Part shown: positions 34,207-51,637 of the stretch, in pieces
Numbering within the stretch: position 1 is the stretch's first letter
Layout: the number at the start of each line of letters is the position of its first letter
From: Deltaproteobacteria bacterium
GTDB taxonomy: Bacteria > Desulfobacterota > DSM-4660 > Desulfatiglandales > Desulfatiglandaceae
DNA length: 64,000 bases
Reading direction: 5' to 3'
Assembly: GCA_029933075.1 (NCBI GenBank)
Contig: JAOZOW010000006.1
Span: 1,080 to 65,079 of the forward strand
Translations under genes and position numbers: made by a program
The notes under the pieces: generated by a model
What the model saw: only the letters and a program-made list of their open reading frames with translations
Told to the model about the DNA's origin: nothing
The model's database searches: none

Positions 34207-34274
34207 TCGGGGCTGTGGAGGCAGAAGACACCGAGCCCACGGGGATTTGTGAGATTGATATTGTGGAGAAGAGC

Positions 34275-34706: not shown

Positions 34707-35656
34707 TGCTACATTATACGGAAAAAATCAGAGAGATCGCCGGGAGACTCCTGAAACAGGGGGTGGTGGACGTATTTATCGGCTACAGGAAGGGCTCGGT
34801 CCCCATGATGAATAATCCTTTATTGATTAGGGATCCCGGCAGCACGGATCTCCTTTACTGGGACAGCAATTGTGCGCTGAACCTTTGCAATTATTTGACA
34901 GGGAGGAAGGACAGGATCGGGATTGTGGCCACCGGTTGCGTTTCAAGAAATATCGTCACCCATATAGTTGAAAACCAGATCAGCCGCTCCCAGCTCTATG
35001 TAGTCGGGATCCCATGCACGGGGATGATAAGCCACAGGGCAGTGATAAGAGCGGTGGGCGGGAGGGAAATCATCGAATTTGAGGAACAGGGGGAGCGATT
35101 CCTGGTACGCGGGCGGGATTTTGAAGAGATATTTGAAAAGAATGATTTCCTCCAAAGCAATTGCGCCGTGTGCAGATATCCCAATCCGGTGCTGTACGAC
35201 GAGATGTTGGGAGAGCGTGTGCCGGGATATGAAGGGGACGATGTCTACAGGGACGTGGAAAAGGTGGAGCAGATGAGCAGTGAGGATAGGCGTGGCTTTT
35301 TCTCGCGCATGATCTCCCGCTGTATTCGTTGTTATGCCTGCAGGGATGCCTGTCCTTTATGTTATTGCCCCACCTGTTTTGTGGATGAATCGCGGCCCCA
35401 GTGGGTGGGGAAAAGCATAGACCCTGTGGACACAATGACCTTTCATCTGCTGCGGGCCTTTCACTGTGCCGGCAGGTGTACGGATTGCGGCGCATGCGAG
35501 CGTGCCTGTCCCATGGGTATCCCGGTCAGGCAGTTTACCAAGAAACTCAACAAGGACGTCCAGGAGCTGTTTTCCTGGGAGGCGGGGCTCGGCCTGGAGC
35601 AGAGGCCCCCCTTGGATGTGTACAGGCAGGATGACTACGACGGTTTTATTCGATGA
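34703..35656 (+). CDS. Fe-S protein, FlxC-like (AsrA / sulfhydrogenase-beta paralogue)
   Basis: CIRCYACRDACPLCYCPTCF and CTDCGACERACP motifs; 317 aa; translationally coupled on both sides. The B versus C assignment is tentative. Confidence 0.6.
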   Translation: MMLHYTEKIREIAGRLLKQGVVDVFIGYRKGSVPMMNNPLLIRDPGSTDLLYWDSNCALNLCNYLTGRKDRIGIVATGCVSRNIVTHIVENQISRSQLYVVGIPCTGMISHRAVIRAVGGREIIEFEEQGERFLVRGRDFEEIFEKNDFLQSNCAVCRYPNPVLYDEMLGERVPGYEGDDVYRDVEKVEQMSSEDRRGFFSRMISRCIRCYACRDACPLCYCPTCFVDESRPQWVGKSIDPVDTMTFHLLRAFHCAGRCTDCGACERACPMGIPVRQFTKKLNKDVQELFSWEAGLGLEQRPPLDVYRQDDYDGFIR

Positions 35657-36693
35657 CGGCCTATAGAGTATACAGCAAGGAGGAATGGACCAGTGCAGTG
35701 AAGGCCCTGGAGTCTCACTATCAGGTATTTGTGCCCGTAAAGGATGGGGATTTTCATCTATTCGGCCTTCTTTCGGAGGGCAAGAGGCCGGATTTTGATT
35801 TTCAAAATACGCACCTTTCTCCCAAGTCCATCGTATATCCCCAGTCGGAGCGCATGTTCGAGTACAGTCTGGACGGAGAGGACCCTGACGCCCACATGCT
35901 GAAAGAAGCGCCAAAGGATTTTTCGCCCAGGGCCATCGTCGGCATCAGACCTTGTGATGCCTTGGCCTTTCAAAGGGTCAGGGTCAATTTCGACACCCCC
36001 CGGTACCGGGACCCCTGGTGGGTGAGCCGGTTCGAGTCCACCACCTTTGTGGGTTTGGGCTGCAATGCCCCTGAGGCCACCTGCTTTTGCACCTCGGTAG
36101 GCGGCGGCCCCTTCAGCGAAGCGGGTCTGGACGTGTTACTCTACGACTTGGGAGACCGCTTCCTGGCCAAGGTGCTCACCTCCAAAGGGGATGGCCTTTT
36201 GAAGAAAGCCCTGGGGGGAATGGAGGCGGATGGTACTTTGGTGCGACAGGCAGAATCACTGGCACTCAAGGTGACAGAGGCCATGCCGGCCGTTGTTCCA
36301 GTTGATGGTTTGAAAGACAAATCAGTACTGGAACTATTTGAGGCGCCTTTCTGGGAGGATGTGGCTTTTGGCTGTATCAACTGCGGCACCTGCACCTATC
36401 TCTGTCCCACCTGCTGGTGCTTTGACATACAGGACGAGGTGCTGGGAAAGTCGGGGGATCGTATTCGCAACTGGGATTCCTGCATGTTCCCCCTGTTTAC
36501 CCTGCATGGATCAGGACACAACCCAAGGGGCGGGAAGGTGGCGCGGGTACGCCAGCGCTTCATGCACAAGCTGAAGTATTATTTGGACAAGTATAACGAA
36601 GGAGTTCAGTGTTCGGGCTGCGGGCGCTGTGTGCGCTCCTGTCCCGCAAATATTGATATCCGGCAGGTAGCCGAACTCATGAACAGTCTATGA
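35653..36693 (+). CDS. Fe-S protein, FlxB-like (AsrA / sulfhydrogenase-beta-like)
   Basis: CINCGTCTYLCPTCWCFDIQDE and CSGCGRCVRSCP motifs; 346 aa. Confidence 0.65.
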   Translation: MTAYRVYSKEEWTSAVKALESHYQVFVPVKDGDFHLFGLLSEGKRPDFDFQNTHLSPKSIVYPQSERMFEYSLDGEDPDAHMLKEAPKDFSPRAIVGIRPCDALAFQRVRVNFDTPRYRDPWWVSRFESTTFVGLGCNAPEATCFCTSVGGGPFSEAGLDVLLYDLGDRFLAKVLTSKGDGLLKKALGGMEADGTLVRQAESLALKVTEAMPAVVPVDGLKDKSVLELFEAPFWEDVAFGCINCGTCTYLCPTCWCFDIQDEVLGKSGDRIRNWDSCMFPLFTLHGSGHNPRGGKVARVRQRFMHKLKYYLDKYNEGVQCSGCGRCVRSCPANIDIRQVAELMNSL

Positions 36694-37556
36694 GTAAGCG
36701 AGCCCGTATGACCCTCGACAACCCATATTTACCCTATCCGGTGCGCATCGAGCAGATCGTGACCGAGACCGAGGACGGCAATCTCAAGACCTTCCGTCTT
36801 GTATTCTTGAATCCGGAGCACGAGGAGAAGTTTCGCTATATGCCGGGGCAGTTCGCCGAGCTTTCCATTGCGGGGAAGGGCGAGATTCCTATCGGCATTG
36901 CTTCTTCTCCCACCGAGAGAGGGTTTTTGAGTTTTACGGTGAACAGAGTAGGGGTGGTGACCGCCCATCTCCATAACATGAAGGAGGGAGATGTGATGGG
37001 AGTCAGGGGTCCGCTGGGAAACTGCTACCCCTGGGACGAGATGGAGGCAAAGAATGTGGTCATCATCGGCGGGGGCTTTGCCTTTACCACCCTGAGATCG
37101 AGCCTTGTATATCTCCTTGACCCCCAAAACCGCTCCAGGTTCAAGGATGTCATCGTGGTCTATGGGGCCAGGAGCCCGGGCATGCTTCTTTACAGAGATG
37201 AACTCTGGCAGTGGGAAAAGCGGGACGACCTCCAGATGCATGTGACCGTCGATGCCACGGATGATCCTGACTGGAAACACCACACAGGATTTGTCCCCAC
37301 CATTGTAAAAAAGGTGGTCCCATCCTCGGACAGCTCGGTGGCCTTGGTGTGCGGCCCCCCTGTTATGATCAGAAACACCCAACCTGTGCTGGAAGACTTG
37401 GGGTTTCCGCCCGAGAGGGTCTTTTTGTCCCTTGAGATGCGCATGAAGTGCGGCATAGGCATGTGCGGCAGATGCAATATCGGAGATCAATATGTGTGCA
37501 AGGACGGCCCCGTATTCTCTTTGGCCCAGCTCAAAGAGATGCCCCCGGAGTACTGA
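36690..37556 (+). CDS. FAD/NAD(P)H-binding [2Fe-2S] oxidoreductase, FlxA-like (AsrB / sulfhydrogenase-gamma / PyrK fold)
   Basis: FNR-like fold (RYMPGQF, VVIIGGGFAFTTL) with C-terminal CGIGMCGRCNIGDQYVCKDGPVF. Confidence 0.75.
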   Translation: MSKRARMTLDNPYLPYPVRIEQIVTETEDGNLKTFRLVFLNPEHEEKFRYMPGQFAELSIAGKGEIPIGIASSPTERGFLSFTVNRVGVVTAHLHNMKEGDVMGVRGPLGNCYPWDEMEAKNVVIIGGGFAFTTLRSSLVYLLDPQNRSRFKDVIVVYGARSPGMLLYRDELWQWEKRDDLQMHVTVDATDDPDWKHHTGFVPTIVKKVVPSSDSSVALVCGPPVMIRNTQPVLEDLGFPPERVFLSLEMRMKCGIGMCGRCNIGDQYVCKDGPVFSLAQLKEMPPEY

Positions 37557-37592
37557 ACCGGGGGGCAGCTTACGGCAATAAGGAAAGGTTCT

Positions 37593-38102
37593 GTGACTGT
37601 GAGCAAAATCGACCTTGATCAAGCGGATGCAGGCTTCAAAAAGGAATTGATGTCCCAGCCGGGTGGAGAGATGATCTCGGCCTGCTTCATGTGTCGCACC
37701 TGCGTGGCGAGCTGTCCCATATCCGCCGTGAATGATAGATTTCACCCCCTCAGGATCATTCGCATGGCCCTTTACGGACTCAAGCATGAGGTCCTGAGAA
37801 GTGAATTCATATGGCTTTGCTCCAGTTGCTATGCCTGCCAGGAGAGGTGCCCCCAGGGCGTCAGCATCACCGAGTTCATGACACTGCTCAAGAACTTGGC
37901 TGTAAAGGAAGGCCATATGCCTACGGGGATAAGGGCGCAACTGGACCTGGTAAAAGGGCAGGGCCGAATTTATCCCCTGGACGATTTCGACAACAAGAAG
38001 CGCGGGAAGGTGGGACTTCCGCCTCTGCCAACTTCATGCGATGTTGTGCAAAAGCTGTTTCCAGCGGAAGTTGAGGATAAGGGGCCCTCAGGCCGAGGAT
38101 AG
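37593..38102 (+). CDS. hdrC: Heterodisulfide reductase subunit C-like
   Basis: CFMCRTCVASCPIS and CSSCYACQERCPQG motifs; GTG start; 169 aa. Confidence 0.8.
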   Translation: MTVSKIDLDQADAGFKKELMSQPGGEMISACFMCRTCVASCPISAVNDRFHPLRIIRMALYGLKHEVLRSEFIWLCSSCYACQERCPQGVSITEFMTLLKNLAVKEGHMPTGIRAQLDLVKGQGRIYPLDDFDNKKRGKVGLPPLPTSCDVVQKLFPAEVEDKGPSGRG

Positions 38103-38162
38103 GAGTGTCCGTCACAGAATAGGAACTACTCTGCCGGGTCAAGTTGAATCGTTTACTCTGGG

Positions 38163-39059
38163 ATGACGACAATGAGATATGCACTGTTTTTGGGATGCAC
38201 CATTCCCGCCAGGTCCAGGAACTATGAGCTTTCCGCAAGGCATGTGGCCGGCAAGCTGGGTATTGAGCTGGTGGACGTGGAGGAATTCGCATGTTGCGGA
38301 TTCCCCATCAAGGCCAGTGACCGCAAGGCCTCTGAATTAATGGCCGCATATAATCTGTCGCTGGCCGAAAAGCGGGGCCTGGATCTCCTGACCCTTTGCA
38401 GCTCATGTTCTTCAGCCCTTACAGAAGCGGCACACAGCCTGGAGACCGGCGGTGCCCTGCGAGGACATGTCAATGATGCACTTGCAAGGGTAGGGCTCCA
38501 CTACCAGGGCCGGGCCAGGGTGAGACACTTTGCCCGGGTCCTTTTTGAAGAAGTGGGCGCGGAGAAGATTGCACAATATTTGGAAAGGGATTTGAAGGGT
38601 CTCAAGGTCGCAGTCCATTACGGATGCCACTACCTAAAACCATCTGAAATCTATGACCGTTTTGATTCCGTTGAAATCCCTGAGACTATTGAAACCCTTG
38701 TTGCCCTGACCGGTGCGGAGGTGGTGGACTATCCGGGCAAAAAGCTGTGCTGTGGAGGGCCGGTGCTCCCTGTAGATGAGAAGGTAGCCATGGCCGTGGC
38801 AAAAGAGAAACTTGACAATATTGTAGATGCAGGTGCCGATGCCATGTGCTTGGTATGTCCTTTCTGTTCGGTAATGTATGACGGTAACCAGAAAAGCATC
38901 GAATCGGAATATCAGAAGAGCTACAGGCTCCCTGTGCTTTACCTGACCCAGATCTTGGGCCTGGCAATGGGGTTTGATCGCAAGGCCCTTGGCCTGAACA
39001 TGAATGTGGTCAAGACAAAGGAACTTCTTGCCCCTTTTTTTGGTAAAGGATCAGCTTAA
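38163..39059 (+). CDS. hdrB: Heterodisulfide reductase subunit B-like (two CCG domains)
   Basis: EEFACCGFPIKA and KKLCCGGPVLP CCG signatures; 298 aa. Confidence 0.85.
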   Translation: MTTMRYALFLGCTIPARSRNYELSARHVAGKLGIELVDVEEFACCGFPIKASDRKASELMAAYNLSLAEKRGLDLLTLCSSCSSALTEAAHSLETGGALRGHVNDALARVGLHYQGRARVRHFARVLFEEVGAEKIAQYLERDLKGLKVAVHYGCHYLKPSEIYDRFDSVEIPETIETLVALTGAEVVDYPGKKLCCGGPVLPVDEKVAMAVAKEKLDNIVDAGADAMCLVCPFCSVMYDGNQKSIESEYQKSYRLPVLYLTQILGLAMGFDRKALGLNMNVVKTKELLAPFFGKGSA

Positions 39060-39300: not shown

Positions 39301-39543
39301 ATGACCGAATCCAAAACCATAACATTTCCCAAAACTGTTCCTCTTATAGAACGGATAGAGGGGGTGAGCAAGGAGATTTCAAAGTGGCTTGAATCACTTG
39401 AGGAACCCTTTGATATGGACAGGGACACAATGCACCTGGTAAAGGCGGAGAGAAACGACCATTACAGCTATCACTATATTTTGGATCGTGCAGTCAAAGG
39501 ACCGGAGAAAAAGTCAGCCTCCCACAAATCCAAACAGGGATGA
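39301..39543 (+). CDS. Orphan small ORF (80 aa), hypothetical
   Basis: ATG 39301 follows AGGAGAAGAA. Sequence MTESKTITFPKTVPLIERIEGVSKEISKWLESLEEPFDMD... has no recognisable motif, so coding status is uncertain. Confidence 0.3.
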   Translation: MTESKTITFPKTVPLIERIEGVSKEISKWLESLEEPFDMDRDTMHLVKAERNDHYSYHYILDRAVKGPEKKSASHKSKQG

Positions 39544-39591: not shown

Positions 39592-42500
39592 TCAGCTGGC
39601 CTCTAAAGATGGTGCTATCTTGCCGTAAACCTCATCAAATTTTTTTGCAATAAGGTTTTCAAATTCCTTTCCAAAAAACCGCCGATTTTGCTGCAGGTAC
39701 CACTTGATGCTTTCCCAGTGGTCCCGCAGTTCTTCTCTGTCCAGAACTGTTTTGAGTATTTCCTCTATTTCCCGGAGCTTCTGTCTCTTCAGGTTGTCTT
39801 TTCTAAATTCGTAAAGGTCGTTCAACCTGTGCCTTTGATCCTCGGAAAAACCCAGGTCAAAGGATCGCTCCATGAGGTCAGTGAAAAGGTTGTGGAGCTC
39901 TTCAAAGTCTTCAATGAGCGCCATCTGCTTTTCCGTCTGACCGAGCATGGATTCGATGATCTCTGTCAGCCTCTTTTCAAATGCCCGTTCCAATTGCAGT
40001 TCGTAGTCTTCCGTGTAATAGGGGTGCTTTCTCAGTGAGCGGAGACTGTAGTGAAAATAATTTTTCAGCTGCTCCACATTGTTGATAGTGCCCATATAAG
40101 TCACTTTCTGAGGGATGTTGATTCGATCTCGGAAATCCAGCGAAAGCACGTGAGGAAATGGTTCTTTCCTAAGCAAAAGGCCTGTCTTGGCTTTAAAGAA
40201 ATGATCCACCTGCCGCTTGTCTTCCCATAATTTCTTCATGGACAGTGGGTTGAGATATGCATTGATTGCCTCGTAGCGTTTTTCTATTTTCCTGCTCAGC
40301 TCCAGGAAATTGATGCAGACAGTGGCATGGTTTTGCCTGAATTTCTTGCTCCCGAGCAGTCCCACCAGGATCAGCTTGAGGCGGTTTTCATAAGTCAGGT
40401 ATCCGCTGGTCTTTTCATACCCGTAGATCCTCACCTTGTCCCCTATTAGTCGGTCCAGGATGAAATGTCTGGTCTCCTCGGCCAGTTGCTGGAGCGTGTT
40501 GTAGATACGGAGGGCCTCGAACAGCTCCTTTTCAAACATTGCATATCCGATGCTGGAGAGCTTTCTTTCTTTGTAGATATACTTAATGGGGACATTTAGC
40601 ATGTGACGTGCCAGATCCCGAAACTCCACATACCGGATGCCGTGGAGCCTGAACAGCCGTTCCATTGCGAAGATCATCCTCCCCGCTCGCAATGACTCTT
40701 TTCGGTCCACTTTTTCCCACCGGGGGGAGGCGAGGTAGTCGGCAGGCTTTGATCCTTTCGGCAGGCCTTTTTTCTGATAGGTGCTCAGGGCATGGAACAG
40801 TTTTCCCCTCTGGTGGAAGAGGGTTTCCAACTGGGCATTCAGAGTGGTTTCGCCATCAATGATTTTGTGACACATGGCCCTGATTGCAAATAGTCGTTCG
40901 GCCAGGTCCTCGCGAATGAGATCCTCCCTTAGGGCGGAGAGCATGATGAATGAAAAAACGAAAAAGGCATCGAACAGCTCCTTGTTGGCGGGTGCGAGGG
41001 TCTCCTGGATGGCGGAAAAGGAGAGCTCTCCTCGAACAATGTGGTGTACAAGGCCATGGTGTCTGATAAGAAACAGGAGGCACTCTTCCCCTCCGGGCTC
41101 CAGGTGGTATTTTTCATGTATCCTTTCCTTTTCCACGAAAAATGCCCCTGCCTGGGCAAGGTCAGCGGGATTGATCTCTTTTTGATATTTGTCCCGGAGG
41201 GTGGTTGACCTGCCCACATCCTGGAATATGAACGATTTTATAAAGGCATCAAATAGGGGGCCGTTTTGTTTGAGGGTCTCAAGGATTCTTTCAAGTTCCT
41301 CGATCTGGTCTTCACTTGCCCCCACTATGCCCGCTGCCATGGGGCCGAATTCTTTCCGGGCCAGCATGTGCAGGAACCGGGTGTCCTGGAAGCTCTCCCT
41401 GTCATGCCTGATCAGGGCCTGTAGTTTCTTTGTGCTGGCGATAATATAGTGAATGACAGGGGATTTCAGGTACAGATGAGGCGAGAGATCAAGATCTTGC
41501 AAGCCTTTTAATTCGGGAAGGATGAAATCCAGAAGGGAGGGCGCATGTTGATGAAGGAGATCGAGGTCTGTATATAATGCTTCGGGCTTGAAAATCACGT
41601 CCAGAAAATTATCCCGCAACTGTTTTCTCAGCTCCCCCGTCCTTTGAAACCATTGGGTCTGCCTGGCAGGCAGTTTCAAGGATGGATCTTTTTGCTGAGC
41701 AATCCTGATATGTCCCTGATAAAAGTCCTCCAGGTTAGAGAAGAGGGCCTCGAATTTCTTTAGATCCTCAAGCGGTATTTCAGATATCCGGCACCCGGCC
41801 AAGCGCTTTGAGAGCGATTCAAGCTGATCCATGTTCCGGTCCAGGTCCACGCAGTCGATCTCCAGCGCCTGGTTTTCCGCGTCAACAGTGAGCTTGAAGC
41901 CGGTTCCCGCAATAAAGGCCGTCCCGTCTTCATGGAGTTGTCTGCCGAGCTGTTTCAGGATGGCGTGGTCAAGGTAATGGATATTTATGGCTCTGGCCTC
42001 CTCTTCCACTTTTTTTACCCAGGCAGGCACATCCTCAGGCTCCACACGGGCCAGGATGGGATTGAAGTTGATGATATCCCCGCGGGAGATGGTCACGGCA
42101 ATCCAAAGCAATATGAATACCAACTCACTGTCCATCCGTTCGAACAGGTGGACGGTGCCATGGAACTCTATGTCCAAAAACTTCCTGTAAAATGCGGGCA
42201 ATTGAAGGGGGTCGGATCGCAAGTAGAGATTTTCAAACTGTTCTATCGTGTCAACGAGCTTTATCACGTTGTTGATCCGCGACAGTTTGTGCTCATCATA
42301 ATCCGCAAGGGCCTCCTTTTCCATCCGCCCCTTGTGCCTCAGATCGACCCAATTGTCCAGGAACTCAAAATGGTTTATCATCTTCAGGAGTTTTCGCGTA
42401 ACCCTGTTGTGGATCCCGCCGACGGAGATGATCTTCTCGTCCAGAAGGCGGTCCCAATCAAGTTCCCGGATGGTGACGACTTTCACTGCGGATTCATAAA

Positions 42501-44361
42501 GGTCAAAGAGCTCTGTAAGTTCTTCCTGACTCAGTTGGGAGCCTCCGGCGGCCTCCTTTTCAGCCATAGTCATCAATCTGCAGTAACGGAGCAGGTTGAT
42601 GCCCTGCCGGGCATCAAATGTTCGGGCCAGGTCCGAGACCGGCTTAAGGGCTTTCTCGTTCATTTTTCCCGAGATGATTCGCCCGAGGGGCGTATGGCCC
42701 AGAACAATGTACAGGATCTCCTTTAACTCTTCATGGCTGAACCCGAAAAAGGGCAGGATCTCCAGGTTTTCAATCACCTTGGTATTTGTGCCTTCGATAT
42801 TGTCAGGGTTTAGATGGTCTCTTACTCTTTTCAGCCTCCCGGTTTTGGACATCAATCGGATTACGTGATTGAAGGCGGGAAATCTCCTGTTCTTGTTTTC
42901 AAGGGGTTGCCTCAACCGGTCAATAAGGGTTTTGGGAAGATCATCGTGATCGCCCTCTTTCAGTCTGTTAAGTACGTCGAGGGTCTGGATGACATAATCG
43001 AAGGAGTCCCTGTAATCGGAAACCAGGGCAACAGGGCATCCCATGAGCTTTGATTCCTTGGCCTCGTTTTCCAGTTCCTCGAAGGTTGTTCTCAAGGGCT
43101 TTTTCTGCCCGAGATAGATGAGCATGTAGGACGGTTCATACCCATTAAAAGAAAATCTTTTTCTCCACCCCTTCTTTACGTAGGGAGGGACGAGGGGTTT
43201 CAGAAATATCATGTCAAAATAGATGGAAAGGAGCCTGGACCAGTTCTTTTCCTGCTCGCTCAAAAGGGGCCAGTCGGCAAGCTCATCGTTTCTATAAGGA
43301 AGTCTGTTCATTTCCCTGAGGGAGAGATCGGAAAGATCTCTACCTTGGAGCAGTTTTTCAATGACTTCATGTTCCACGTAGAGCCCGTCCAGGTACTTTT
43401 GAAAGTCGAAGGTGTTTACTTCAACGGCATGGTCTTTGATCCTGTACTTTTTCTTGGTTTTGAATATGTGGCTGAAAAGGAGAAAATTCTTTTCTTCTTC
43501 CTCGGACCTGAAAGCGATCTTTGTTACGCGGTTTGATCTTGGAACGTGGTGATTTGCGATGATAAACAGTTCGCCCTCCGGTTTCAACAGCCTGAAGATT
43601 TTATGGAGAAGGTAGGTGGCATATTGATCCAGGCGCTTCTTGGAAACGCCTTCCCGGGAGAGGGGGCCGAATTTTTCCATGAAAAGGATTTCATAAAGGT
43701 CCCAGGTCAACACGATCAGGTCTAGGGTTTCATTTAAAAGGCGGAGCTTTTCCACAGAGTCTATCACCAGGAAACGGTGTTCCTTGAACCTAAGAGAGAG
43801 CTCATGGGCGATAAGGTCGTCCTGGTGGGTGATAATCCCGATATCGTGGTATTCCTTGAAATATTTTTTTCTGTGGAAGCCGATGATCTTGGTAATTTCG
43901 TCAACCTTGGCTCTTATATGGGTGAGGGTGTTTGAGACCAGATGACCGGGAATGAGGTAATAGGGTTTTCCGTGGCGGGTAAATCGAATCAGTAGCCCTA
44001 TCCTCCTGTATAGATCGTTAAGGGCCCTGTAATGTGCCTTGGTATCTTCTGGATTTTCTATGCTGATGGACTGGATCAGTCTGATGTCTTCAGGGCTCAG
44101 CCTATGGTAGAATTCAAAAATTCCGAACCCGTAAGCATTTCCACCGAATCTGCTTTCCAGGTGTGCGGGGTGTTTCAGGGCGGGAAAGGTGCCTAAAGGG
44201 ATATCTCTCGGGTTGATGCCGAAGTCTTCAAACTCCTCCGGCTTGACAAATCGAAAAGAGTCCTTTTGCCAAACGGACTCTTTCGGAAAGAAGGCGATGG
44301 GATCCATCTGAGTACCAGGACCTTGATAAGTCCTACACAGAGCACCAAGCGCCCGCCTCAT
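39592..44361 (-). CDS. Giant (1589 aa) protein of unknown function with degenerate GlnD-type HD-like helical modules and an N-terminal methyltransferase-like segment
   Basis: Uninterrupted 4.77-kb ORF. FIKSFIFQDVGRS...LLFLIRHHGLVHHIVRGE resembles the GlnD HD region (hhHDIGKG...LVxHHLLM) with His replaced by Gln. DLIVLTWDL...IFRLLKPEGELFII resembles class-I SAM-MTase motifs but has no G-rich loop. The ATG directly abuts the livF stop (TAGATG). Confidence 0.75.
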   Translation of the reverse strand: MRRALGALCRTYQGPGTQMDPIAFFPKESVWQKDSFRFVKPEEFEDFGINPRDIPLGTFPALKHPAHLESRFGGNAYGFGIFEFYHRLSPEDIRLIQSISIENPEDTKAHYRALNDLYRRIGLLIRFTRHGKPYYLIPGHLVSNTLTHIRAKVDEITKIIGFHRKKYFKEYHDIGIITHQDDLIAHELSLRFKEHRFLVIDSVEKLRLLNETLDLIVLTWDLYEILFMEKFGPLSREGVSKKRLDQYATYLLHKIFRLLKPEGELFIIANHHVPRSNRVTKIAFRSEEEEKNFLLFSHIFKTKKKYRIKDHAVEVNTFDFQKYLDGLYVEHEVIEKLLQGRDLSDLSLREMNRLPYRNDELADWPLLSEQEKNWSRLLSIYFDMIFLKPLVPPYVKKGWRKRFSFNGYEPSYMLIYLGQKKPLRTTFEELENEAKESKLMGCPVALVSDYRDSFDYVIQTLDVLNRLKEGDHDDLPKTLIDRLRQPLENKNRRFPAFNHVIRLMSKTGRLKRVRDHLNPDNIEGTNTKVIENLEILPFFGFSHEELKEILYIVLGHTPLGRIISGKMNEKALKPVSDLARTFDARQGINLLRYCRLMTMAEKEAAGGSQLSQEELTELFDLYESAVKVVTIRELDWDRLLDEKIISVGGIHNRVTRKLLKMINHFEFLDNWVDLRHKGRMEKEALADYDEHKLSRINNVIKLVDTIEQFENLYLRSDPLQLPAFYRKFLDIEFHGTVHLFERMDSELVFILLWIAVTISRGDIINFNPILARVEPEDVPAWVKKVEEEARAINIHYLDHAILKQLGRQLHEDGTAFIAGTGFKLTVDAENQALEIDCVDLDRNMDQLESLSKRLAGCRISEIPLEDLKKFEALFSNLEDFYQGHIRIAQQKDPSLKLPARQTQWFQRTGELRKQLRDNFLDVIFKPEALYTDLDLLHQHAPSLLDFILPELKGLQDLDLSPHLYLKSPVIHYIIASTKKLQALIRHDRESFQDTRFLHMLARKEFGPMAAGIVGASEDQIEELERILETLKQNGPLFDAFIKSFIFQDVGRSTTLRDKYQKEINPADLAQAGAFFVEKERIHEKYHLEPGGEECLLFLIRHHGLVHHIVRGELSFSAIQETLAPANKELFDAFFVFSFIMLSALREDLIREDLAERLFAIRAMCHKIIDGETTLNAQLETLFHQRGKLFHALSTYQKKGLPKGSKPADYLASPRWEKVDRKESLRAGRMIFAMERLFRLHGIRYVEFRDLARHMLNVPIKYIYKERKLSSIGYAMFEKELFEALRIYNTLQQLAEETRHFILDRLIGDKVRIYGYEKTSGYLTYENRLKLILVGLLGSKKFRQNHATVCINFLELSRKIEKRYEAINAYLNPLSMKKLWEDKRQVDHFFKAKTGLLLRKEPFPHVLSLDFRDRINIPQKVTYMGTINNVEQLKNYFHYSLRSLRKHPYYTEDYELQLERAFEKRLTEIIESMLGQTEKQMALIEDFEELHNLFTDLMERSFDLGFSEDQRHRLNDLYEFRKDNLKRQKLREIEEILKTVLDREELRDHWESIKWYLQQNRRFFGKEFENLIAKKFDEVYGKIAPSLEAS

Positions 44362-45165
44362 CTAAAGCCAGCGCTTGCGTCTCTTGTATGCTTTAACATC
44401 CCTATACGATTTAAGTGCCCCGGAAGCGGCGGTTCCAAGGTAGAATTCTTTCACGTCAGGATTCTCTCTTAGCTCCTGGGCCGTGCTCTCCATGACGATC
44501 TTGCCGTTTTCCATAACGTAGCCATAATGGGCGATCTGGAGGGCCATATTGGCGTTCTGCTCGACCACCATCAGCGTTGTGCCTTGCTCCTCATTGATCT
44601 TTCTGATGATCTGAAATATTTCTTTGACCAGCAGTGGGGCAAGACCTAAGGAAGGCTCATCCAAAAGGAGGAGCTTGGGGTGGGCCATCAGTCCTCTGCC
44701 GATCACGAGCATTTGGAGTTCACCGCCGCTACAATATCCTGCTAATGATTTTTTTCTGGCCAGGAGGGCCGGAAAATACCGGTATACCAGTTCCAGGTCC
44801 TTTTGGTACGGTTTCCCCCACCGGGTAGCGGTCCCCACCCTCAGGTTTTCCTCTACGGTGAGATATTTGAATTCCTGCCTTCCTTCAAGGACCTGAATAA
44901 TTCCTTTTCTCGTGATCTCCTCAGGGGAAGAGTTTTGCACCTGCTCTCCATCATACTCGATGGATCCTTCCGTGACTTTGCCATTTTCAGGTTTGAGTAG
45001 CCCGGAGATGGCCTTGAGCGTGGTGGTTTTGCCTGCGCCGTTGCTGCCCAAAAGGGAAACGATCTGCCCTTTCCTTATGGTAAGGGAGACTCCTTTTAGG
45101 ACCTGGATAACGTCAGCGTAGACCACACTGATGTTGTTGATGAGCAGCCTGATGTTGTCTTCCAT
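44362..45165 (-). CDS. livF: Branched-chain-amino-acid-type ABC transporter ATP-binding protein (LivF-like) with basic C-terminal tail
   Basis: Walker A GSNGAGKTT, signature SGGELQML and Walker B LLLDEP. Tail ...KAYKRRKRWL follows the usual YLG end. Confidence 0.9.
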   Translation of the reverse strand: MEDNIRLLINNISVVYADVIQVLKGVSLTIRKGQIVSLLGSNGAGKTTTLKAISGLLKPENGKVTEGSIEYDGEQVQNSSPEEITRKGIIQVLEGRQEFKYLTVEENLRVGTATRWGKPYQKDLELVYRYFPALLARKKSLAGYCSGGELQMLVIGRGLMAHPKLLLLDEPSLGLAPLLVKEIFQIIRKINEEQGTTLMVVEQNANMALQIAHYGYVMENGKIVMESTAQELRENPDVKEFYLGTAASGALKSYRDVKAYKRRKRWL

Positions 45166-45237
45166 GACATCAACCTTTTTTCCTTCGGACAATGGAGCGC
45201 CGGAACATTGGATCAGTTTTCGATCCCCCGGCAAATG

Positions 45238-46326
45238 TCAATACGAGAATGGCCACAGCCTGAAACCGGAACGGACAATCCGCCAAACTTCCGCAATGCC
45301 TTTTGGTTCGAAGATGATAAAGAGCACTATGGCCAGCCCAAACACGAACTCGCGCAGTGGCGCGATGGTAATGGCAACCCCAGTGGATGCACCAATATTC
45401 ATAAGGTACTCCGTAGCATGGCTCAATACTTCCTCCAGTGTGACGATGAAGACCGCGCCGAATACGGAACCGGGAATATTCCCCAGACCCCCGATAATGA
45501 TCATCGCGATAAACACTATGGATAGCCATAGATTAAAGGGCTCCGGTGTAATGCTGATCATATAGTAAGCATAAAGCCCACCGGCAAAACCGGCATAAAA
45601 TGAGCTTATGGCAAAAGAGAGCAATTTGTATGGAAAGATGGGGATCCCCATCCCTTCCGCAGCGCGGTCATTGTCGCGGATTGCGATAAATGCCCGGCCG
45701 TATCGGGTACGGATCAGATTGACTGCCACCCAGGCGAAGAATACGAAACAGATGTATATGACATAGTAGAAGGTCCTGTCATTGCCGAGGTCCAGTCCGA
45801 ACAGGGTGGCGCCGATAACGCTAATGCCGGCGGCGCCCCCTGTAAGACCTTCCCATTGCACAAGCACATATTCGATAATGAACTGACCTGCCAGAGTGGC
45901 GATACAGAGATAAAGATGCTTCAACCGGGCCGAGGGGAGACCAAAGACCATGCCCACAGCGGCTGTTATCAAGCCTGCGGCGGGTAGCGCGGCCCAGAAA
46001 GGGAAATGGGCCCTTGTAGCCAGGATTGCCGCGGCATAGGCCCCTACACCGAAGAAGGCGCCGTGGCCAAGGGATATTTGGCCTGTATAGCCTATGAGGA
46101 GATTGAGTCCAATGGCGGCTATGGCATATATCCCCATAGTATTGAGCACGTATAGGACGAATGCACTGCTGATGAAGGGGATTACCCCGAACAGGAGTAT
46201 CAGACCGATGATCATCCACAGCCTTCCGAAGTCTGTTTCGAAGATGGTGAGCTCCTGGTAATAGGATTCCTTGAAATTACCACAGGGATGGAATTGAAAC
46301 TTTTGCATGTCTACCCTATCCTTCAA
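45238..46326 (-). CDS. livM: ABC transporter permease (LivM-like)
   Basis: 362-aa polytopic protein with the GQISLGHGAFFGVGAY motif. Confidence 0.9.
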   Translation of the reverse strand: MKDRVDMQKFQFHPCGNFKESYYQELTIFETDFGRLWMIIGLILLFGVIPFISSAFVLYVLNTMGIYAIAAIGLNLLIGYTGQISLGHGAFFGVGAYAAAILATRAHFPFWAALPAAGLITAAVGMVFGLPSARLKHLYLCIATLAGQFIIEYVLVQWEGLTGGAAGISVIGATLFGLDLGNDRTFYYVIYICFVFFAWVAVNLIRTRYGRAFIAIRDNDRAAEGMGIPIFPYKLLSFAISSFYAGFAGGLYAYYMISITPEPFNLWLSIVFIAMIIIGGLGNIPGSVFGAVFIVTLEEVLSHATEYLMNIGASTGVAITIAPLREFVFGLAIVLFIIFEPKGIAEVWRIVRSGFRLWPFSY

Positions 46327-46342
46327 GCTTTATTTGCGAGCC

Positions 46343-47221
46343 TTAAACCCTTTCAATTTCAACCAGGCCGAAAAGGCCGTAAGGTTTGACCATAAGGATC
46401 AAGACAAGCACGATATAGGGGACCACCTCCCTCAGGGATGTGGATATATATCCTCCTGTGAAGGTCTCAAGCAGGCCGATAATGACCCCTCCCAGTATCG
46501 CCCCGCCGATGCTGTCCAGGCCCCCGAGGATGACAACCGGAAAGACTTTGAGTCCTATGGCGCTAAGGTTATGGACATTTACGCCGTTGATGATACCCAG
46601 CACGATACCGCTCATGGCACAGACCAAGGCTGCAATGGCCCACGACAGGGCGAAAACCCGCCTGACATGCACGCCAAGAGACAGGGCTGCAGGCTGGTTG
46701 TCCGCCACGGATCTCATATAGATGCCTTGCGAGGAATATTTGAAGAAGAAACCGAAAATGATGAGGAAAATAATGCCTATAATGAAGGTTGCCACATAGA
46801 CAGAAGGGATCTGAATGGCGCCCCATTGCATTGAAAGGCCTTCGGGGAGGAAGTTGGGATAACTGTGAATATCCCCTCCGAAGATAAAAAGGAGGAGGCC
46901 TTTGAACATGGCAGCCAGCCCCACCGTAAGCATAATGACCTCAATCAATTCTTCGCCGATCAAGGGGCGTAGAAAAAACCTCTCGATGATAAAACCGAGC
47001 GAGAAACTCCCTATCAATGTAACGGCGAAAGCAAGGATTATGGGCAACTTGGCCCAGGTAGAGAGTGCAAGGAATAGAAAAGCGCCAATGGCAAGAAGCT
47101 CCCCGTGGGCGAAATTTAAGACACTGCTTGACTTGAAGATCATAACAAAGCCCAGGGCAGAGAGCGCGTAAAGAAATCCGAGCGATATGCCGTTTACCAG
47201 GAGCTGCAAGAAAAATTCCAT
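46343..47221 (-). CDS. livH: ABC transporter permease (LivH-like)
   Basis: 292 aa beginning MEFFLQLLVNGISLGFLYALSALGFVMIF, with NFAHGEL. Confidence 0.9.
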   Translation of the reverse strand: MEFFLQLLVNGISLGFLYALSALGFVMIFKSSSVLNFAHGELLAIGAFLFLALSTWAKLPIILAFAVTLIGSFSLGFIIERFFLRPLIGEELIEVIMLTVGLAAMFKGLLLFIFGGDIHSYPNFLPEGLSMQWGAIQIPSVYVATFIIGIIFLIIFGFFFKYSSQGIYMRSVADNQPAALSLGVHVRRVFALSWAIAALVCAMSGIVLGIINGVNVHNLSAIGLKVFPVVILGGLDSIGGAILGGVIIGLLETFTGGYISTSLREVVPYIVLVLILMVKPYGLFGLVEIERV

Positions 47222-47243
47222 ATCTGGAATACCCTCCCCCTTA

Positions 47244-49199
47244 TTAAACGTCTAATATTTTTACGGTTGTCTCGACGGTTCCCACATGTCCGTCCCTGTA
47301 GCGGACCTGGCCTTTTACCCTAAGCTCCGCCTTATTCTCATACATGGCATCAATTAGATCCTTATATTGCTTAAACACGAATTTCCGTCTCACTTTCCCC
47401 GTCCTGGTCAATTCTTCGTCGTCCGCATCCAGGAGTTTGTAAAGGAGGATGAATTTTACAAGCTGCATCGGCTTTGGCAGTTGGGTATTTACTTCGCGTA
47501 TCTCTCCCCTGATCAGTTCTTCCACGGCAGGCTGCTGTGAAAGGTCGGTGTAAGTGGTATAAGGAATCTTTCTGTCCTCGGCCCAGTTCCCTACGTTGCC
47601 GAAGTCGATATTGATAAATGCGGTCAGATAAGGCTGGCCCTCTCCCCATATGACTGCTTCCTTTATGTAAGGACTGAATTTCAACCTCGTCTCGACAAAG
47701 TCGGGTGAGAAGGCTTCCCCTTCTCTTGTGCGCATGATATCTTCTTTGCGGCCGATAATCAGCAGGTGACCGTCTTCATCCAGATAGCCGGCGTCTCCGG
47801 TGTAGAACCAGTCGTCTTTGAGGGCCTCGGCAGTGGCCTCAGGGTTTTCATAATAGCCCTTGAAAATGGATCTGCTTTTTACGAGGACCTCCTGATCCTC
47901 CGTGATCCTTACCTCGGTGCGCGGGAGGCACTTGCCCACTGTCTCGGGCTTTACCTCATCGTCGGGCTGGACCTGGAAGATGCCCCCGGCCTCCGTTAGT
48001 CCATAACATTGCTTCAGATTAAGTCCATTGGCCCTGAAAAAACGGATAACATCCGGACTGATTGGATGCCCGCCGGTATAGGCCCCCCGGAAGTTAAGAC
48101 ATCCCACGCGGTCCATAAGGGGCCGGGAGATGATCCGTGTTGCCAGCCACCTCAGTAACCGCAGGCTTGCGGGGACCGGTTTTTTTTCGGATTCCAGATC
48201 CACCACCGCTCCCCCTATTTTCTGAGAGAGGTTATAGAGGTATCGCTTGGCAAATCCGGCGTCGCTGATTTTCACCCTGATCTTGGAGGCCAGGTCCTCC
48301 CAGAATCTGGATGAAGTGATTATGACGCTTGGGCCTATCTCCCTGAAGTCCTCCACCGCAGTCTCAAATGTCTCCGGGAAATTCATGGTCATGCCGCCCG
48401 CAAGTGTGATGCCAACCCCCCATAATTGATCCACTATCCAGGCCGTGGGCGTTATGGAAATCCAGTTGTCCCCGATGCCTATCGGTGCGGTCTCAAGCCA
48501 TTTTCGGGACATCTCGGTGAAATTCTCATAGCTCAACATGACGAGCTTGGGCTCGCCAGTGGTCCCCGAGGTCATGAGCATCAGGGCAACATCGTCCGGC
48601 TTTCCCTCCCACAGCTCCTTTATGAAGAACTCCGGCTGCTCCCTGTCGAGCTCTTCTCCAAGCTCAAGTAACTGGGCGAAGCTGATAAGCCAAGGATCGT
48701 CTCTGTACGCTCTCATTCCTGTGGGGTCGATATATATCACCCTTCGCACATGAGGGAGTTCTTCCCGACAAGAGAGCACTTTGTCCACCTGCTCTTGGTC
48801 CTGGACAAAGACGTAGGCCGCCCTGAACCGATTAAGGCCCTGTTGCTGCTCTTTGGCTACCGCCGAGGTGAACAGTGGGACTGCTACGGCCCCGATCGAC
48901 TGCAATCCCAGTTCGGCAAAAAGCCATTCCGGGTGATTGTCAAGGATCAGCCCCACGTTCTCCCCTCTCTTTAAGCCCAGTGAGGCCAGCCCCAAGGCAA
49001 CCAGCTTCATGTAATTGAAATATTCCTTCCAATTGAAGGTTTGCCATATCCCATATGCCTTTTCCCGGATGGCGGTTTTATCGGAGCCCAGGCGCTCTGC
49101 CTGCCTGGAGAGAATCTGGGGAAAGGTATATTCGCACATGGACTCCAAGGTATCGTTATCAATACGGTCTATCTTAAGATCGTTCGGGCTCATCTCCAT
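47244..49199 (-). CDS. AMP-dependent synthetase/ligase (long-chain acyl-CoA synthetase-like) embedded in the ABC operon
   Basis: MTSGTTGEPK AMP-binding motif plus YTGD and GRKED motifs; 651 aa. Sits between livG and livH. Confidence 0.88.
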   Translation of the reverse strand: MEMSPNDLKIDRIDNDTLESMCEYTFPQILSRQAERLGSDKTAIREKAYGIWQTFNWKEYFNYMKLVALGLASLGLKRGENVGLILDNHPEWLFAELGLQSIGAVAVPLFTSAVAKEQQQGLNRFRAAYVFVQDQEQVDKVLSCREELPHVRRVIYIDPTGMRAYRDDPWLISFAQLLELGEELDREQPEFFIKELWEGKPDDVALMLMTSGTTGEPKLVMLSYENFTEMSRKWLETAPIGIGDNWISITPTAWIVDQLWGVGITLAGGMTMNFPETFETAVEDFREIGPSVIITSSRFWEDLASKIRVKISDAGFAKRYLYNLSQKIGGAVVDLESEKKPVPASLRLLRWLATRIISRPLMDRVGCLNFRGAYTGGHPISPDVIRFFRANGLNLKQCYGLTEAGGIFQVQPDDEVKPETVGKCLPRTEVRITEDQEVLVKSRSIFKGYYENPEATAEALKDDWFYTGDAGYLDEDGHLLIIGRKEDIMRTREGEAFSPDFVETRLKFSPYIKEAVIWGEGQPYLTAFINIDFGNVGNWAEDRKIPYTTYTDLSQQPAVEELIRGEIREVNTQLPKPMQLVKFILLYKLLDADDEELTRTGKVRRKFVFKQYKDLIDAMYENKAELRVKGQVRYRDGHVGTVETTVKILDV

Positions 49200-49215
49200 T
49201 TATCGACTCTCTGCT

Positions 49216-51251: not shown

Positions 51252-51360
51252 GGTCTCCCTCCTTTGAAAATGGTTAGTTCTTATTACCCACAAGCCTTAA
51301 TTCTTCCCTATATAATATCACCAACCTTTCTGTTTGTGAAATATTAAGTGAACGCCGTGA

Positions 51361-51390
51361 ATTTATTTTACTTTTTAACATCTTGTCAAG
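51361..51390 (-). promoter_or_regulatory. Candidate promoter of the liv-type operon
   Basis: On the minus strand: TTGACA (51390-51385), 18 nt, ATAAAT (51366-51361). Confidence 0.3.
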
Positions 51391-51569
51391 GGAAATCGTC
51401 CGCGGACTTCCGCGGGAGACTCATGTAAAGATGCCTTGTCAAGGCGGGGTGTCGTAAGAGGTCGGACATGCTCTTTATGGATGATACGTTTACAATTTAA
51501 CTGCAATTTAGCTTTAAAGTAGCTATTGTATGACCACATGAGGCCTGTCAAGAAAAAACCATAAAACCC

Positions 51570-51598: not shown

Positions 51599-51602
51599 GC
51601 CT

Positions 51603-51622: not shown

Positions 51623-51637
51623 CAAAGGACTGTCATC

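What the first reader, a model, noticed from the sequence alone, without database searches (positions are those of the whole stretch)
39592..44361. Orphan 1589-aa protein with degenerate GlnD-like HD modules, abutting the ABC operon and visibly more AT-rich than its neighbours
This is the largest gene in the window, and I could find no catalytic motif: no P-loop, no intact HD, no nucleotidyltransferase G-S/DxD motif. Two helical segments resemble the GlnD/HD-domain core, but the metal-binding His-Asp is altered (FIFQDVGRS...LIRHHGLVHHIVRGE, and earlier IVLGHTPLGRI). The N-terminal third has class-I methyltransferase-like strands (DLIVLTWDL, IFRLLKPEGELFII) without the SAM-binding glycine loop. 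That pattern suggests a pseudo-enzyme or scaffold. Its ATG directly abuts the livF stop (TAGATG), implying co-transcription with a transporter and ligase operon. Four 60-nt lines I counted by hand gave 35, 43, 43 and 58 percent GC. Single lines counted in purA and the liv permease region gave about 62 and 50 percent. This hints at a different origin or different constraints.
Basis: partly seen in the sequence, partly recalled or inferred. Interest (0 to 1): 0.7.

Follow-up and report, generated by a model that had tools for sequence, protein, structure and literature searches.

The report
Conserved giant pseudo-enzyme-like protein of Desulfobacterota
The big gene is real and native. It founds an unannotated family of about 1,570-residue proteins in uncultured sulfate-reducer relatives, built from methyltransferase-like and duplicated HD/nucleotidyltransferase-like folds that have lost the usual catalytic residues; its function is still unknown.

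Summary
The ORF (39592..44361, minus strand) is real, but it is not an orphan. More than 370 protein clusters and 204 species-level genomes carry full-length relatives of about 1,570 aa at 25-66% identity. Nearly all are uncultured Desulfobacterota, all are labelled hypothetical, and none hits Pfam, NCBIfam, PADLOC or PDB sequences.

The conserved start is M19 (44307). The TAGATG junction with livF is therefore an artefact of an open upstream frame; the true spacer is 54 nt.

GC is lower than the window (48.7% against 52.5%), but GC3 and synonymous codon usage match the neighbours. The gene is native, and the deficit comes from amino-acid composition.

High-confidence AlphaFold models and Foldseek show a class-I methyltransferase fold without the glycine loop. 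The C-terminal half resembles class-II CCA-adding enzymes. hhalign shows an internal duplication (436-620 against 996-1190, probability 95.6%). Module 2 aligns weakly but in register with the HD domains of E. coli CCA and GlnD, with QD in place of HD.

Linkage to the ABC/ligase operon holds only in the close clade (19 of 37 loci). ETF linkage is commoner (30 of 37). Distant relatives show neither.

The pseudo-enzyme reading is supported at the classical sites. The proposed link to transport is not.

The parts
39592..44307 (-). Most likely CDS: 1571 aa plus stop, 185 kDa, pI 7.2, soluble. Starts at M19 of the longest ORF.
   Evidence: ORF and translation. Homologue N-termini. Conserved ATGGATCC start in relatives, preceded by an in-frame stop in three of them. 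Hydropathy, pI and mass.
44308..44361 (-). 54-nt spacer between the ABC ATPase stop and the true start. It is open in frame here, which creates the apparent TAGATG overlap. It contains a CCTGGTA element, conserved in close relatives, 8-15 nt before the ATG.
44017..44307 (-). N-terminal region (residues 19-115) carrying the family-wide HP..L.SR.GGNAYG.G..E loop. The loop is modelled with low confidence.
43057..44016 (-). Class-I methyltransferase-like Rossmann domain (residues ~116-435). It has no GxGxG SAM loop; the equivalent position reads IG[LI]xTxxDDL.
   Evidence: AF2 pLDDT 86.6. Foldseek. Motif check.
41962..43056 (-). Repeat module 1 (residues 436-800). It comprises an HD-like helical domain (436-620: GH[ST]xxxxRxxxGK ... 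AE) and a helical/beta part (621-800: HGTG, LLW, NxNP).
   Evidence: hhalign internal duplication. Motif conservation.
41377..41961 (-). Middle region (residues 801-995): a small beta-sheet (xTGF ... D839) followed by helices. It ends in the highly conserved segment K979...F991xD...EFGP.
40087..41376 (-). Repeat module 2 (residues 996-1425). It comprises an HD-like domain with FQD[IV]G[RK] in place of HDxGK, then HHGLxxHxxRGE and EDL (996-1190), and a helical/beta part (1191-1425).
   Evidence: Foldseek to class II CCA-adding enzyme:
39595..40086 (-). C-terminal bundle of five long helices (residues 1426-1589).
   Evidence: AF2 secondary structure, pLDDT about 90:
44362..51293 (-). Upstream co-directional operon: substrate-binding protein, ABC ATPase, AMP-dependent ligase, two BPD_transp_2 permeases, ABC ATPase.
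   Evidence: Pfam. Same gene order in relatives.
51638..54158 (+). Divergent TetR (YsiA/FadR-like C-terminal domain) followed by ETF beta and ETF alpha. This is the most consistently linked neighbour in the close clade.
   Evidence: Pfam. Linkage in 30 of 37 loci.

Best explanation
This is a genuine, vertically inherited gene for a soluble protein of about 185 kDa. It belongs to an undescribed family that keeps one fixed architecture of about 1,570 residues and is found, as far as the databases show, almost only in uncultured Desulfobacterota (Desulfobacterales, Desulfatiglandales, Syntrophobacteraceae).

Shown: the architecture is (1) an N-terminal region with an invariant GGNAYG loop; (2) a class-I methyltransferase fold that lacks the SAM glycine loop; (3) two tandem copies of a module of about 390 aa, each an HD-like helical domain followed by a helical/beta part, separated by a beta-sheet-plus-helix region, so that the C-terminal half resembles a class-II (CCA-adding/GlnD-type) nucleotidyltransferase; and (4) a C-terminal helical bundle. 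The canonical catalytic residues of all three parent folds are absent or not conserved across the family.

Inferred: the protein most likely works as a ligand-binding scaffold or regulator rather than as a methyltransferase, phosphohydrolase or nucleotidyltransferase. The likeliest ligand is a nucleotide or RNA, given its CCA/GlnD-type ancestry. In this genome it is probably read through from the TetR-controlled ABC/acyl-CoA-ligase operon across a 54-nt spacer. That linkage is lineage-specific synteny, not the family's functional context.
For: The gene is real and conserved. There are 375 clusters, and the best 120 are 55-66% identical over 87-100% of the length. 204 GTDB species carry a relative. 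An exhaustive search of 1.84e9 representatives finds only 133 clusters, all fragments or members of the same architecture, with identity down to 25%.

The gene is native: GC3 is 0.613, like the neighbours, and RSCU correlates at r = 0.88.

Folds. The AF2 models have pLDDT 86.6 and 90.1. Foldseek finds MTases (E 2e-3, probability 1.0) and a class II CCA-adding enzyme (3wfp/3wfr; E 2e-3, probability 1.0, about 400 columns).

Internal duplication: hhalign gives 95.6% (E 1e-8) for 436-620 against 996-1190, and E 2.4e-4 for 621-800 against 1191-1425.

HD register. Module 2 against the E. coli CCA HD region scores P 7.5e-4 and ranks above all 458 background proteins. GlnD H514-D515 aligns with Q1047-D1048.

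Degeneracy. No GxGxG loop occurs in any member, the xTG...DxD pattern is not conserved, and QD is lost in several distant members. There is no Pfam, NCBIfam, PADLOC or PDB sequence hit.

Context. ABC_F is directly upstream in 19 of 37 loci and divergent ETF is present in 30 of 37. Distant homologues sit among unrelated, mostly housekeeping genes.
Against: The structural matches are weak in absolute terms: Foldseek E is about 2e-3, TM 0.34-0.49 and rmsd is large. The HD similarity is not statistically secure (hhalign probability <=20%; GlnD P 0.06-0.1; Dgt, SpoT and YfbR give nothing).

About 30 polar residues are conserved across the whole family (H556, R561, K566, E601, H734, T736, N765, N767, K979, E1004, D1152 and others). 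These could form a non-canonical active site, so 'non-catalytic' is not proven.

There is no direct evidence for nucleotide or RNA binding. Transcription was not measured.
Confidence: 0.5

Rival explanations
1. It is an active enzyme with a non-canonical active site. For example, it could be a phosphohydrolase or nucleotidyl-transfer/removal enzyme acting on a nucleotide, an RNA 3' end or a protein. It would use the family-wide conserved residues (H556/R561/K566/E601 in module 1; H734/T736/N765/N767; K979/E1004; the N-terminal GGNAYG loop) instead of the classical HD, DxD or GxGxG motifs.
For: Conservation is very strong and even over 1,570 residues (mean column identity 69% in the close set). 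About 30 polar residues are conserved down to 25% identity, and they cluster in module 1 and the N-terminus, which are the most conserved parts. H556 and E601 align with the late His and the final Asp of the GlnD HD domain.
Against: No known catalytic constellation is intact. The QD doublet and D839 vary among distant members. No profile or PDB sequence hit exists.
Confidence: 0.25
2. It is a dedicated accessory of the fatty/organic-acid uptake and activation system. It would act as a scaffold or regulator linking the ABC importer, the AMP-dependent ligase and ETF.
For: In this window and in many relatives it is the last gene of the SBP-ATPase-ligase-permease-permease-ATPase operon, with a divergent FadR-like TetR and ETF beta/alpha. 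The full operon is upstream in 26 of 47 loci, ABC_F is directly upstream in 36 of 73, and ETF lies within 10 kb in 30 of 37. No terminator-like site lies in the spacer.
Against: The transporter cassette is replaceable: L005 has a TRAP transporter on the other strand, and several loci have ETF directly adjacent. L003 has acetate kinase upstream. Five of 37 loci have neither ETF nor ABC. All eight loci (seven distinct contexts) read for distant homologues lack ETF, ABC and a co-directional ligase. L086 carries only a differently built AMP-binding gene on the opposite strand more than 7 kb upstream. The neighbours there are PgpA, RNase E/G, tRNA synthetases, S21, Era/RNase III and a two-component system. 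The architecture points to nucleotide or RNA ancestry, not lipid ancestry.
Confidence: 0.12
3. It is a horizontally acquired or defence-type gene, which would explain its lower GC.
For: GC is 3.8 points below the window mean, in the lowest 2% of windows. The protein is large and unannotated, with a methyltransferase-like domain.
Against: GC3 and RSCU are indistinguishable from the neighbours. The gene keeps a stable syntenic position across dozens of species. No PADLOC hit was found. No mobile-element genes were seen in the flanks that were read.
Confidence: 0.03

Closest known systems
Bacterial class II CCA-adding enzymes with an HD domain (E. coli Cca; PDB 3wfp/3wfr-type enzymes)
   Same: They give the best structural match to residues 770-1589 (Foldseek E 2e-3, probability 1.0, about 400 aligned columns). 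Module 2 aligns in register with the Cca HD region 251-310 (SFIFQDVGR against ATLCHDLGK). Both have a small beta-sheet 'head' followed by long helical domains.
   Different: There is no GG...DxD catalytic motif and no helix between the Gly turn and the next strand. HD is replaced by QD. No PolyA_pol or HD Pfam hit is found. The protein is four times larger, has a duplicated module, and carries extra MTase-like and coiled-coil parts.
GlnD (PII uridylyltransferase/uridylyl-removing enzyme) and GlnE
   Same: They share the order NTase-like part followed by an HD-like domain. Both modules align in register with the GlnD HD domain (FQD against F-H514-D515; MTMAE against LTVAD). GlnE offers a precedent for tandem duplicated modules.
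   Different: The alignments are not significant (P 0.06-0.2). GlnE gives no signal. There are no ACT domains, no NTase motif and no NCBIfam or Pfam hit.
Methyltransferase-like pseudo-enzyme domains, e.g. the N-terminal domain of anamorsin (PDB 4m7r)
   Same: It is among the top structural matches to residues 19-830. It is a Rossmann MTase fold that its depositors name only 'methyltransferase-like'.
   Different: It belongs to an unrelated protein context (eukaryotic Fe-S assembly). Sequence identity is about 12%. SAM binding by the domain studied here is untested.
Inactive HD-like domain of the bacterial GlyRS beta subunit
   Same: It is a catalytically dead HD-type domain in a tRNA-handling protein. 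Its authors considered a relationship of that protein to class II CCA-adding enzymes (PDB 3wfr) but concluded it is apparently not close (bioRxiv 10.1101/2021.08.20.456953, read).
   Different: It was not compared directly here and serves only as a functional analogy.

Membership tests
HD-domain metal-dependent phosphohydrolases (Pfam PF01966) | Profile match to the HD family | tested here: not met
   No Pfam hit at E<=1 for the query or at E<=10 for 11 distant members. No PDB sequence hit with family profiles.
HD-domain metal-dependent phosphohydrolases (Pfam PF01966) | H...HD...D metal-binding residues | tested here: not met
   The doublet is Q1047-D1048 (FQDxG[RK]) and is lost altogether in several distant members. 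Module 1 has no doublet at all.
HD-domain metal-dependent phosphohydrolases (Pfam PF01966) | HD-type helical fold or remote homology | tested here: inconclusive
   hhalign of module 2 against the E. coli Cca HD region gives P 7.5e-4 to 6e-3, in register, ranking above all 458 background proteins. GlnD gives P 0.06-0.1, in register. Dgt, SpoT and YfbR give nothing. PDE10 appears in Foldseek only at E about 1-2.
GlnD / PII uridylyltransferase | NTase motif G-G-Y-G-R...S-D-x-D, an intact HD domain and two ACT domains | tested here: not met
   No G[SG]...DxD motif. D839 and D841 are not conserved. There are no ACT or HD Pfam hits and no NCBIfam hit.
Class I SAM-dependent methyltransferases | Rossmann-like MTase fold | tested here: met
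   The Foldseek top 50 are all MTases or MTase-like domains, with probability 0.93-1.0 for all but one (a spermidine synthase at 0.72) and TM (target) up to 0.49, on a model with pLDDT 86.6.
Class I SAM-dependent methyltransferases | Motif I glycine-rich SAM loop (GxGxG) after strand 1 | tested here: not met
   The position reads IG[LIV]xTxxDDL in close members and is also glycine-poor in distant members. The protein contains no GxGxG anywhere.
Class I SAM-dependent methyltransferases | SAM binding or methyl transfer | not testable with these tools
   Needs ITC or DSF with SAM/SAH on residues ~116-435.
Class II nucleotidyltransferases (CCA-adding enzyme / poly(A) polymerase) | Overall head-neck-body-tail fold | tested here: inconclusive
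   Foldseek matches 3wfp/3wfr/3wfq at E 2e-3 to 2e-2, probability 1.0, TM (target) 0.34-0.38 and rmsd 17-19 A. No residue-level alignment was available.
Class II nucleotidyltransferases (CCA-adding enzyme / poly(A) polymerase) | Catalytic GG...DxD carboxylates and a PolyA_pol profile match | tested here: not met
   hhalign of residues 700-1030 against the Cca N-terminal half gives P 0.23.
P-loop NTPases | Walker A motif [AG]x4GK[ST] in a strand-loop-helix context | tested here: not met
   Only G560-RIIS-GK-M is present. The next residue is M/V/L/T/Q across the family, and the AF2 model places the segment in an all-helical context.
Known anti-phage defence systems (PADLOC-DB) | Profile match to any defence protein | tested here: not met
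   No family at E<=1.

The most novel reading that the evidence does not exclude
The family is an active, previously unrecognised kind of enzyme or signalling protein descended from GlnD/CCA-type nucleotidyltransferase-HD proteins. One example would be a nucleotidyl-transfer/removal or RNA-3'-end-acting machine that uses Asn/Gln/His/Arg/Lys-based sites (H556-R561-K566-E601; N765/N767; Q1047-D1048) and a pseudo-methyltransferase domain as its substrate- or ligand-binding module. It would be a core function of uncultured sulfate-reducing and syntrophic Desulfobacterota.
Probability: 0.15. Interest if true: 0.7.

Novelty: new variant of a known kind. Interest (0 to 1): 0.45.

Why it matters
A 185-kDa protein conserved along its whole length in at least 204 species of environmentally important, mostly uncultured Desulfobacterota has no annotation in any curated library. 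This analysis shows that it is native. It has a fixed architecture built from degenerate methyltransferase and duplicated HD/class-II-nucleotidyltransferase-like modules. It is not functionally bound to the transporter operon next to it.

These results turn a 'hypothetical protein' into a defined family with testable domains and candidate functional residues. They also guard against annotating it by neighbourhood as a transport or fatty-acid protein. If it proves to be an active enzyme or a nucleotide/RNA sensor, it would be a new branch of the GlnD/CCA-type superfamily.

Tried and rejected
- Sequence-profile annotation gave nothing. This covered Pfam on the query and 11 distant members, NCBIfam, PADLOC, and PDB phmmer and hmmsearch with two family profiles.
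- Foldseek of the C-terminal model against viral structures (BFVD) returned only noise.
- I tried to strengthen the HD test with a Cca family alignment. The 120 best hits were 85-99% identical (template Neff 1.2), so there was no gain.
- Enriching the module profiles with all representative-search proteins gave no gain in significance: Cca P 0.0016 against 7.5e-4 with the smaller profile, GlnD P 0.097 against 0.058.
- Other E. coli HD proteins (Dgt, SpoT, YfbR) gave no signal.
- GlnE and the N-terminal halves of GlnD and Cca, compared with residues 700-1030, gave no significant match. Only a suggestive K979...FQD...EFG against GlnD 216-244 alignment appeared (P 0.07).
- I looked for a conserved small downstream partner ORF. 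The small ORFs next to distant homologues are unrelated to each other.
- I searched the fetched loci for GlnD or Cca genes of Desulfobacterota to use as templates and found none.
- The RelA/SpoT-like 'HD plus synthetase' reading of the modules was rejected. No RSH structure appears among the Foldseek hits, and SpoT gives no hhalign signal.
- Foreign origin and defence-island readings were rejected on GC3, RSCU, synteny and PADLOC.
Full report
OBSERVATION

The window contains one uninterrupted ORF of 1589 codons on the minus strand at 39592..44361. It is the largest ORF in the 64 kb. A motif scan finds no Walker A, no GxGxG, no NTase G[SG]...DxD and no CxxC. The three 'HD' dipeptides are at non-conserved positions. 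Pfam, NCBIfam and a phmmer search of all PDB chains return nothing at E<=1. The stop codon of the upstream ABC ATPase gene is immediately followed by an in-frame ATG.

START CODON

In an alignment of 23 homologues, almost all begin at the residue equivalent to M19 (MDP...). The few longer N-termini are unrelated to each other. At the DNA level, close relatives share the start ATGGATCC. It lies about 50-55 nt after the ABC_F stop and is preceded by a conserved CCTGG(T/A)A. In three of them (L006, L072, L073) an in-frame TAG sits directly before the ATG. In this window that codon is CAG, so the frame happens to stay open back to an ATG that touches the livF stop. The real CDS is therefore most likely 39592..44307 (1571 aa, 185 kDa, pI 7.2, no transmembrane segment). 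The 'TAGATG abutment' is not real. Co-transcription remains plausible: the spacer is 54 nt, no terminator-like site lies in it, and the best promoter-like sites lie upstream of the first operon gene. These consensus scans are no better than chance overall.

COMPOSITION

The gene has 48.7% GC against 52.5% for the window, which puts it in the lowest 2% of equal-sized windows. GC3 is 0.613, and the six genes of the upstream operon lie at 0.61-0.65. The deficit is in codon position 2 (0.304) and reflects a composition of Leu 13%, Glu 9%, Lys 7.5%, Arg 7.5%, Ile 7% and Phe 6%. Synonymous codon usage correlates with the rest of the window at r = 0.88, which is typical of the large genes there. The AT-richness is real but is an amino-acid effect, not a sign of foreign origin.

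NOT AN ORPHAN

A search of 5.8 billion protein clusters gives 375 hits. The best 120 are 1390-1591 aa long (all but two are 1555-1591 aa), 55-66% identical over 87-100% of the query, all 'hypothetical' and without Pfam domains. A scan of one genome per GTDB species finds relatives in 204 species. The 80 best are all MAGs labelled Desulfobacteraceae, Desulfobacterales, Desulfatiglandales, Ca. Desulfacyla, Thermodesulfobacteriota or 'Deltaproteobacteria'. A few short contigs are binned elsewhere.

An exhaustive HMMER search of 1.84 billion representatives with residues 19-1218 finds only 133 clusters. All are fragments or full-length proteins of the same length (1510-1585 aa), down to 25% identity, and no protein with another architecture matches. 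One distant cluster is named Syntrophobacteraceae. The family is coherent, clade-restricted and uncharacterised.

STRUCTURE

Two overlapping AlphaFold2 models built on alignments of 47-48 diverse members are confident. Residues 19-830 have pLDDT 86.6 and pTM 0.81. Residues 770-1589 have pLDDT 90.1 and pTM 0.83.

Foldseek against the PDB matches the N-terminal model only to class-I SAM methyltransferases and to the 'methyltransferase-like' domain of anamorsin (E 2e-3 to 1.5e-2, probability about 1.0, TM up to 0.49). The motif-I glycine loop is absent in every member (IG[LI]xTxxDDL), and the acidic residue after strand 2 is conserved only in the close clade.

The C-terminal model matches bacterial class II CCA-adding enzymes first (3wfp/3wfr/3wfq; E 2e-3, probability 1.0, about 400 columns, TM 0.34-0.38). 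After that come only low-probability helical proteins, among them several PDE10 entries at E about 1-2. The identity of 3wfr was taken from a preprint. The small beta-sheet at 814-837 carries xTGF...D839xD, but these residues are not conserved in distant members. The secondary structure also lacks the helix that canonical NTases place between the Gly turn and the DxD strand.

INTERNAL DUPLICATION AND HD LIKENESS

hhalign between column blocks of the family alignment shows that 436-620 and 996-1190 are homologous (probability 95.6%, E 1.1e-8, 140 columns). GH[ST]xxGRIxSGK pairs with HHGLxHHIxRGE, and MTMAExEA pairs with MLSALRED. The following parts, 621-800 and 1191-1425, also align (E 2.4e-4), as do the beta-hairpins at 814-842 and 1387-1415.

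Against single E. coli sequences, module 2 aligns in register with the HD region of Cca (SFIFQDVGR against ATLCHDLGK, then H..GA and ...H; P 7.5e-4). That score is higher than for any of 458 background proteins. It also aligns with the GlnD HD domain (FQD against F-H514-D515; P 0.058, rank 7 of 459). Module 1 aligns with GlnD 536-604 (MTMAE against LTVAD; P about 0.1). GlnE, Dgt, SpoT and YfbR give nothing. Richer query profiles and a low-diversity Cca template alignment did not raise significance.

The GlnD/CCA-type HD ancestry is therefore likely but not proven. The metal-binding His of the doublet is Gln. In several distant members the whole doublet is gone.

CONSERVATION PATTERN

The N-terminal half is more conserved towards distant members (30-34% identity for 19-115, 436-620 and 621-800) than the C-terminal half (23-25%). 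Polar residues conserved in at least 88% of 42 diverse sequences include H64, R71, N75, Y77 and E83 (the GGNAYG loop), and N115, R126, D214, H298 and D319. They also include H556, R561, K566 and E601, then H734, T736, N765 and N767, and finally K979, E1004, Q1019, H1102, E1112, D1152 and R1235. The classical sites are dead, but a non-canonical site cannot be excluded.

GENOMIC CONTEXT

In the window the gene follows SBP, ABC ATPase, AMP-dependent ligase, two permeases and a second ABC ATPase. A TetR with a YsiA/FadR-type ligand domain and ETF beta/alpha lie divergent upstream. A flx/hdr-like redox cluster converges downstream.

Among species-level loci with at least 9.5 kb of upstream sequence, 30 of 37 have the divergent ETF genes within 10 kb, but only 19 of 37 have ABC_F directly upstream. 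Thirteen have ETF without the ABC gene. Other loci, with less upstream sequence, have ETF beta only 300-700 bp away (L027, L041, L062, L076, L078, L084). Five of the 37 have neither.

The slot can hold a TRAP transporter on the other strand (L005) or acetate kinase (L003). HdrB/HdrC-like genes converge directly downstream in 13 of 64 loci.

The eight loci (seven distinct contexts) read for distant homologues (25-35% identity) lack ETF, ABC and a co-directional ligase. L086 has only a differently built AMP-binding gene on the opposite strand more than 7 kb upstream. Their neighbours are PgpA (three loci), RNase E/G directly upstream and co-directional with Asp- and His-tRNA synthetases opposite (L098), Era/RNase III, S21 with an EF-G-like gene, and a two-component system.

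The transporter link is thus lineage-specific synteny around a stable gene, not a family-wide functional association. PADLOC finds no defence relationship.

INTERPRETATION

The best-supported statement is descriptive. This is a native, strongly constrained, soluble multi-domain protein. Its recognisable folds are a methyltransferase fold and two copies of a GlnD/CCA-type HD-like module within a class-II-NTase-like half. All of them lack their canonical catalytic residues.

By inference from that ancestry and from precedents such as the MTase-like domain of anamorsin and the inactive HD domain of bacterial GlyRS beta, I consider a nucleotide- or RNA-binding scaffold or regulator the most likely mode of action (overall confidence 0.5). 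A cryptic enzyme using the conserved non-canonical residues is the main rival (0.25). A dedicated accessory of the ABC/ligase/ETF pathway follows (0.12). Foreign or defence origin is unlikely (0.03).

NOVELTY AND SCORE

No curated family, solved structure or paper found here describes this protein. Its folds are known, but its architecture, its duplication and its degenerate sites are not. I rate it a new variant of a known kind, with interest 0.45. It is a well-defined, widespread 'dark' family in an ecologically important clade with concrete testable residues, but it has no demonstrated function and only weak links to known systems.

Noticed in passing
window 39301..39543 (+): A small 80-aa ORF with a GGAGAAG ribosome-binding site converges on the 3' end of the big gene. 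It is conserved at 67-71% identity at the same position in four related loci (L006, L008, L072, L073). It has no Pfam hit.
   Followed up: partly
window 29061..39059 (+): A redox gene cluster converges on the big gene. It comprises a NuoF-like protein (616 aa), a 1077-aa Fer2/Fer4/Pyr_redox_2 protein, Fer4 proteins, a FAD/NAD oxidoreductase, an HdrC-like Fer4_8 protein and an HdrB-like CCG protein. It looks like a flx/hdr-type electron-bifurcation module. HdrB/HdrC-like genes lie directly downstream of the homologue in 13 of 64 related loci.
   Followed up: partly
window 44308..44330 (-) and related loci: A CCTGG(T/A)A element is conserved 8-15 nt upstream of the ATG of the big gene in the close clade, in place of a canonical GGAGG. 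More distant relatives have GGAG-type sites. It may be an unusual ribosome-binding or regulatory element.
   Followed up: no
window 51294..51637 and 51638..54158: A FadR/YsiA-type TetR plus ETF beta/alpha lie divergent from the ABC/ligase operon. The two best sigma-70-like promoter matches on the minus strand lie in the intergenic region (51389-51312). In relatives the transporter cassette between TetR-ETF and the big gene is variable (ABC, TRAP or none).
   Followed up: partly
L098 6493..12335: In a distant subfamily (1444 aa) the homologue lies 24 bp downstream of an RNase E/G gene and is co-directional with it. Asp- and His-tRNA synthetase genes lie opposite. This is the only hint of an RNA-related context.
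   Followed up: no
L089, L090, L096 (upstream of the homologue): A PgpA (phosphatidylglycerophosphatase A) gene is divergently adjacent to the homologue in three loci of the 33-35% identity subfamilies.
   Followed up: no
L002 16335..19361; L087 7898..10648: Two further large proteins without any Pfam hit lie near homologues. One is a 1008-aa protein beyond the HdrBC-like genes in L002. The other is a 916-aa protein immediately downstream in L087 and L088 whose sequence is highly charged (rich in Glu, Lys and Leu).
   Followed up: no
window 979-1009 of the protein (about 41335..41427, -): The segment K979...F991-Q-D993...LHxLAxxEFGP is one of the most conserved stretches of the C-terminal half. 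It aligns, not significantly (P 0.07), with GlnD 216-244 (K..GGLRD..L.WVARRHFG), a stretch that follows the NTase motif ([20 protein letters not shown]) in GlnD.
   Followed up: partly
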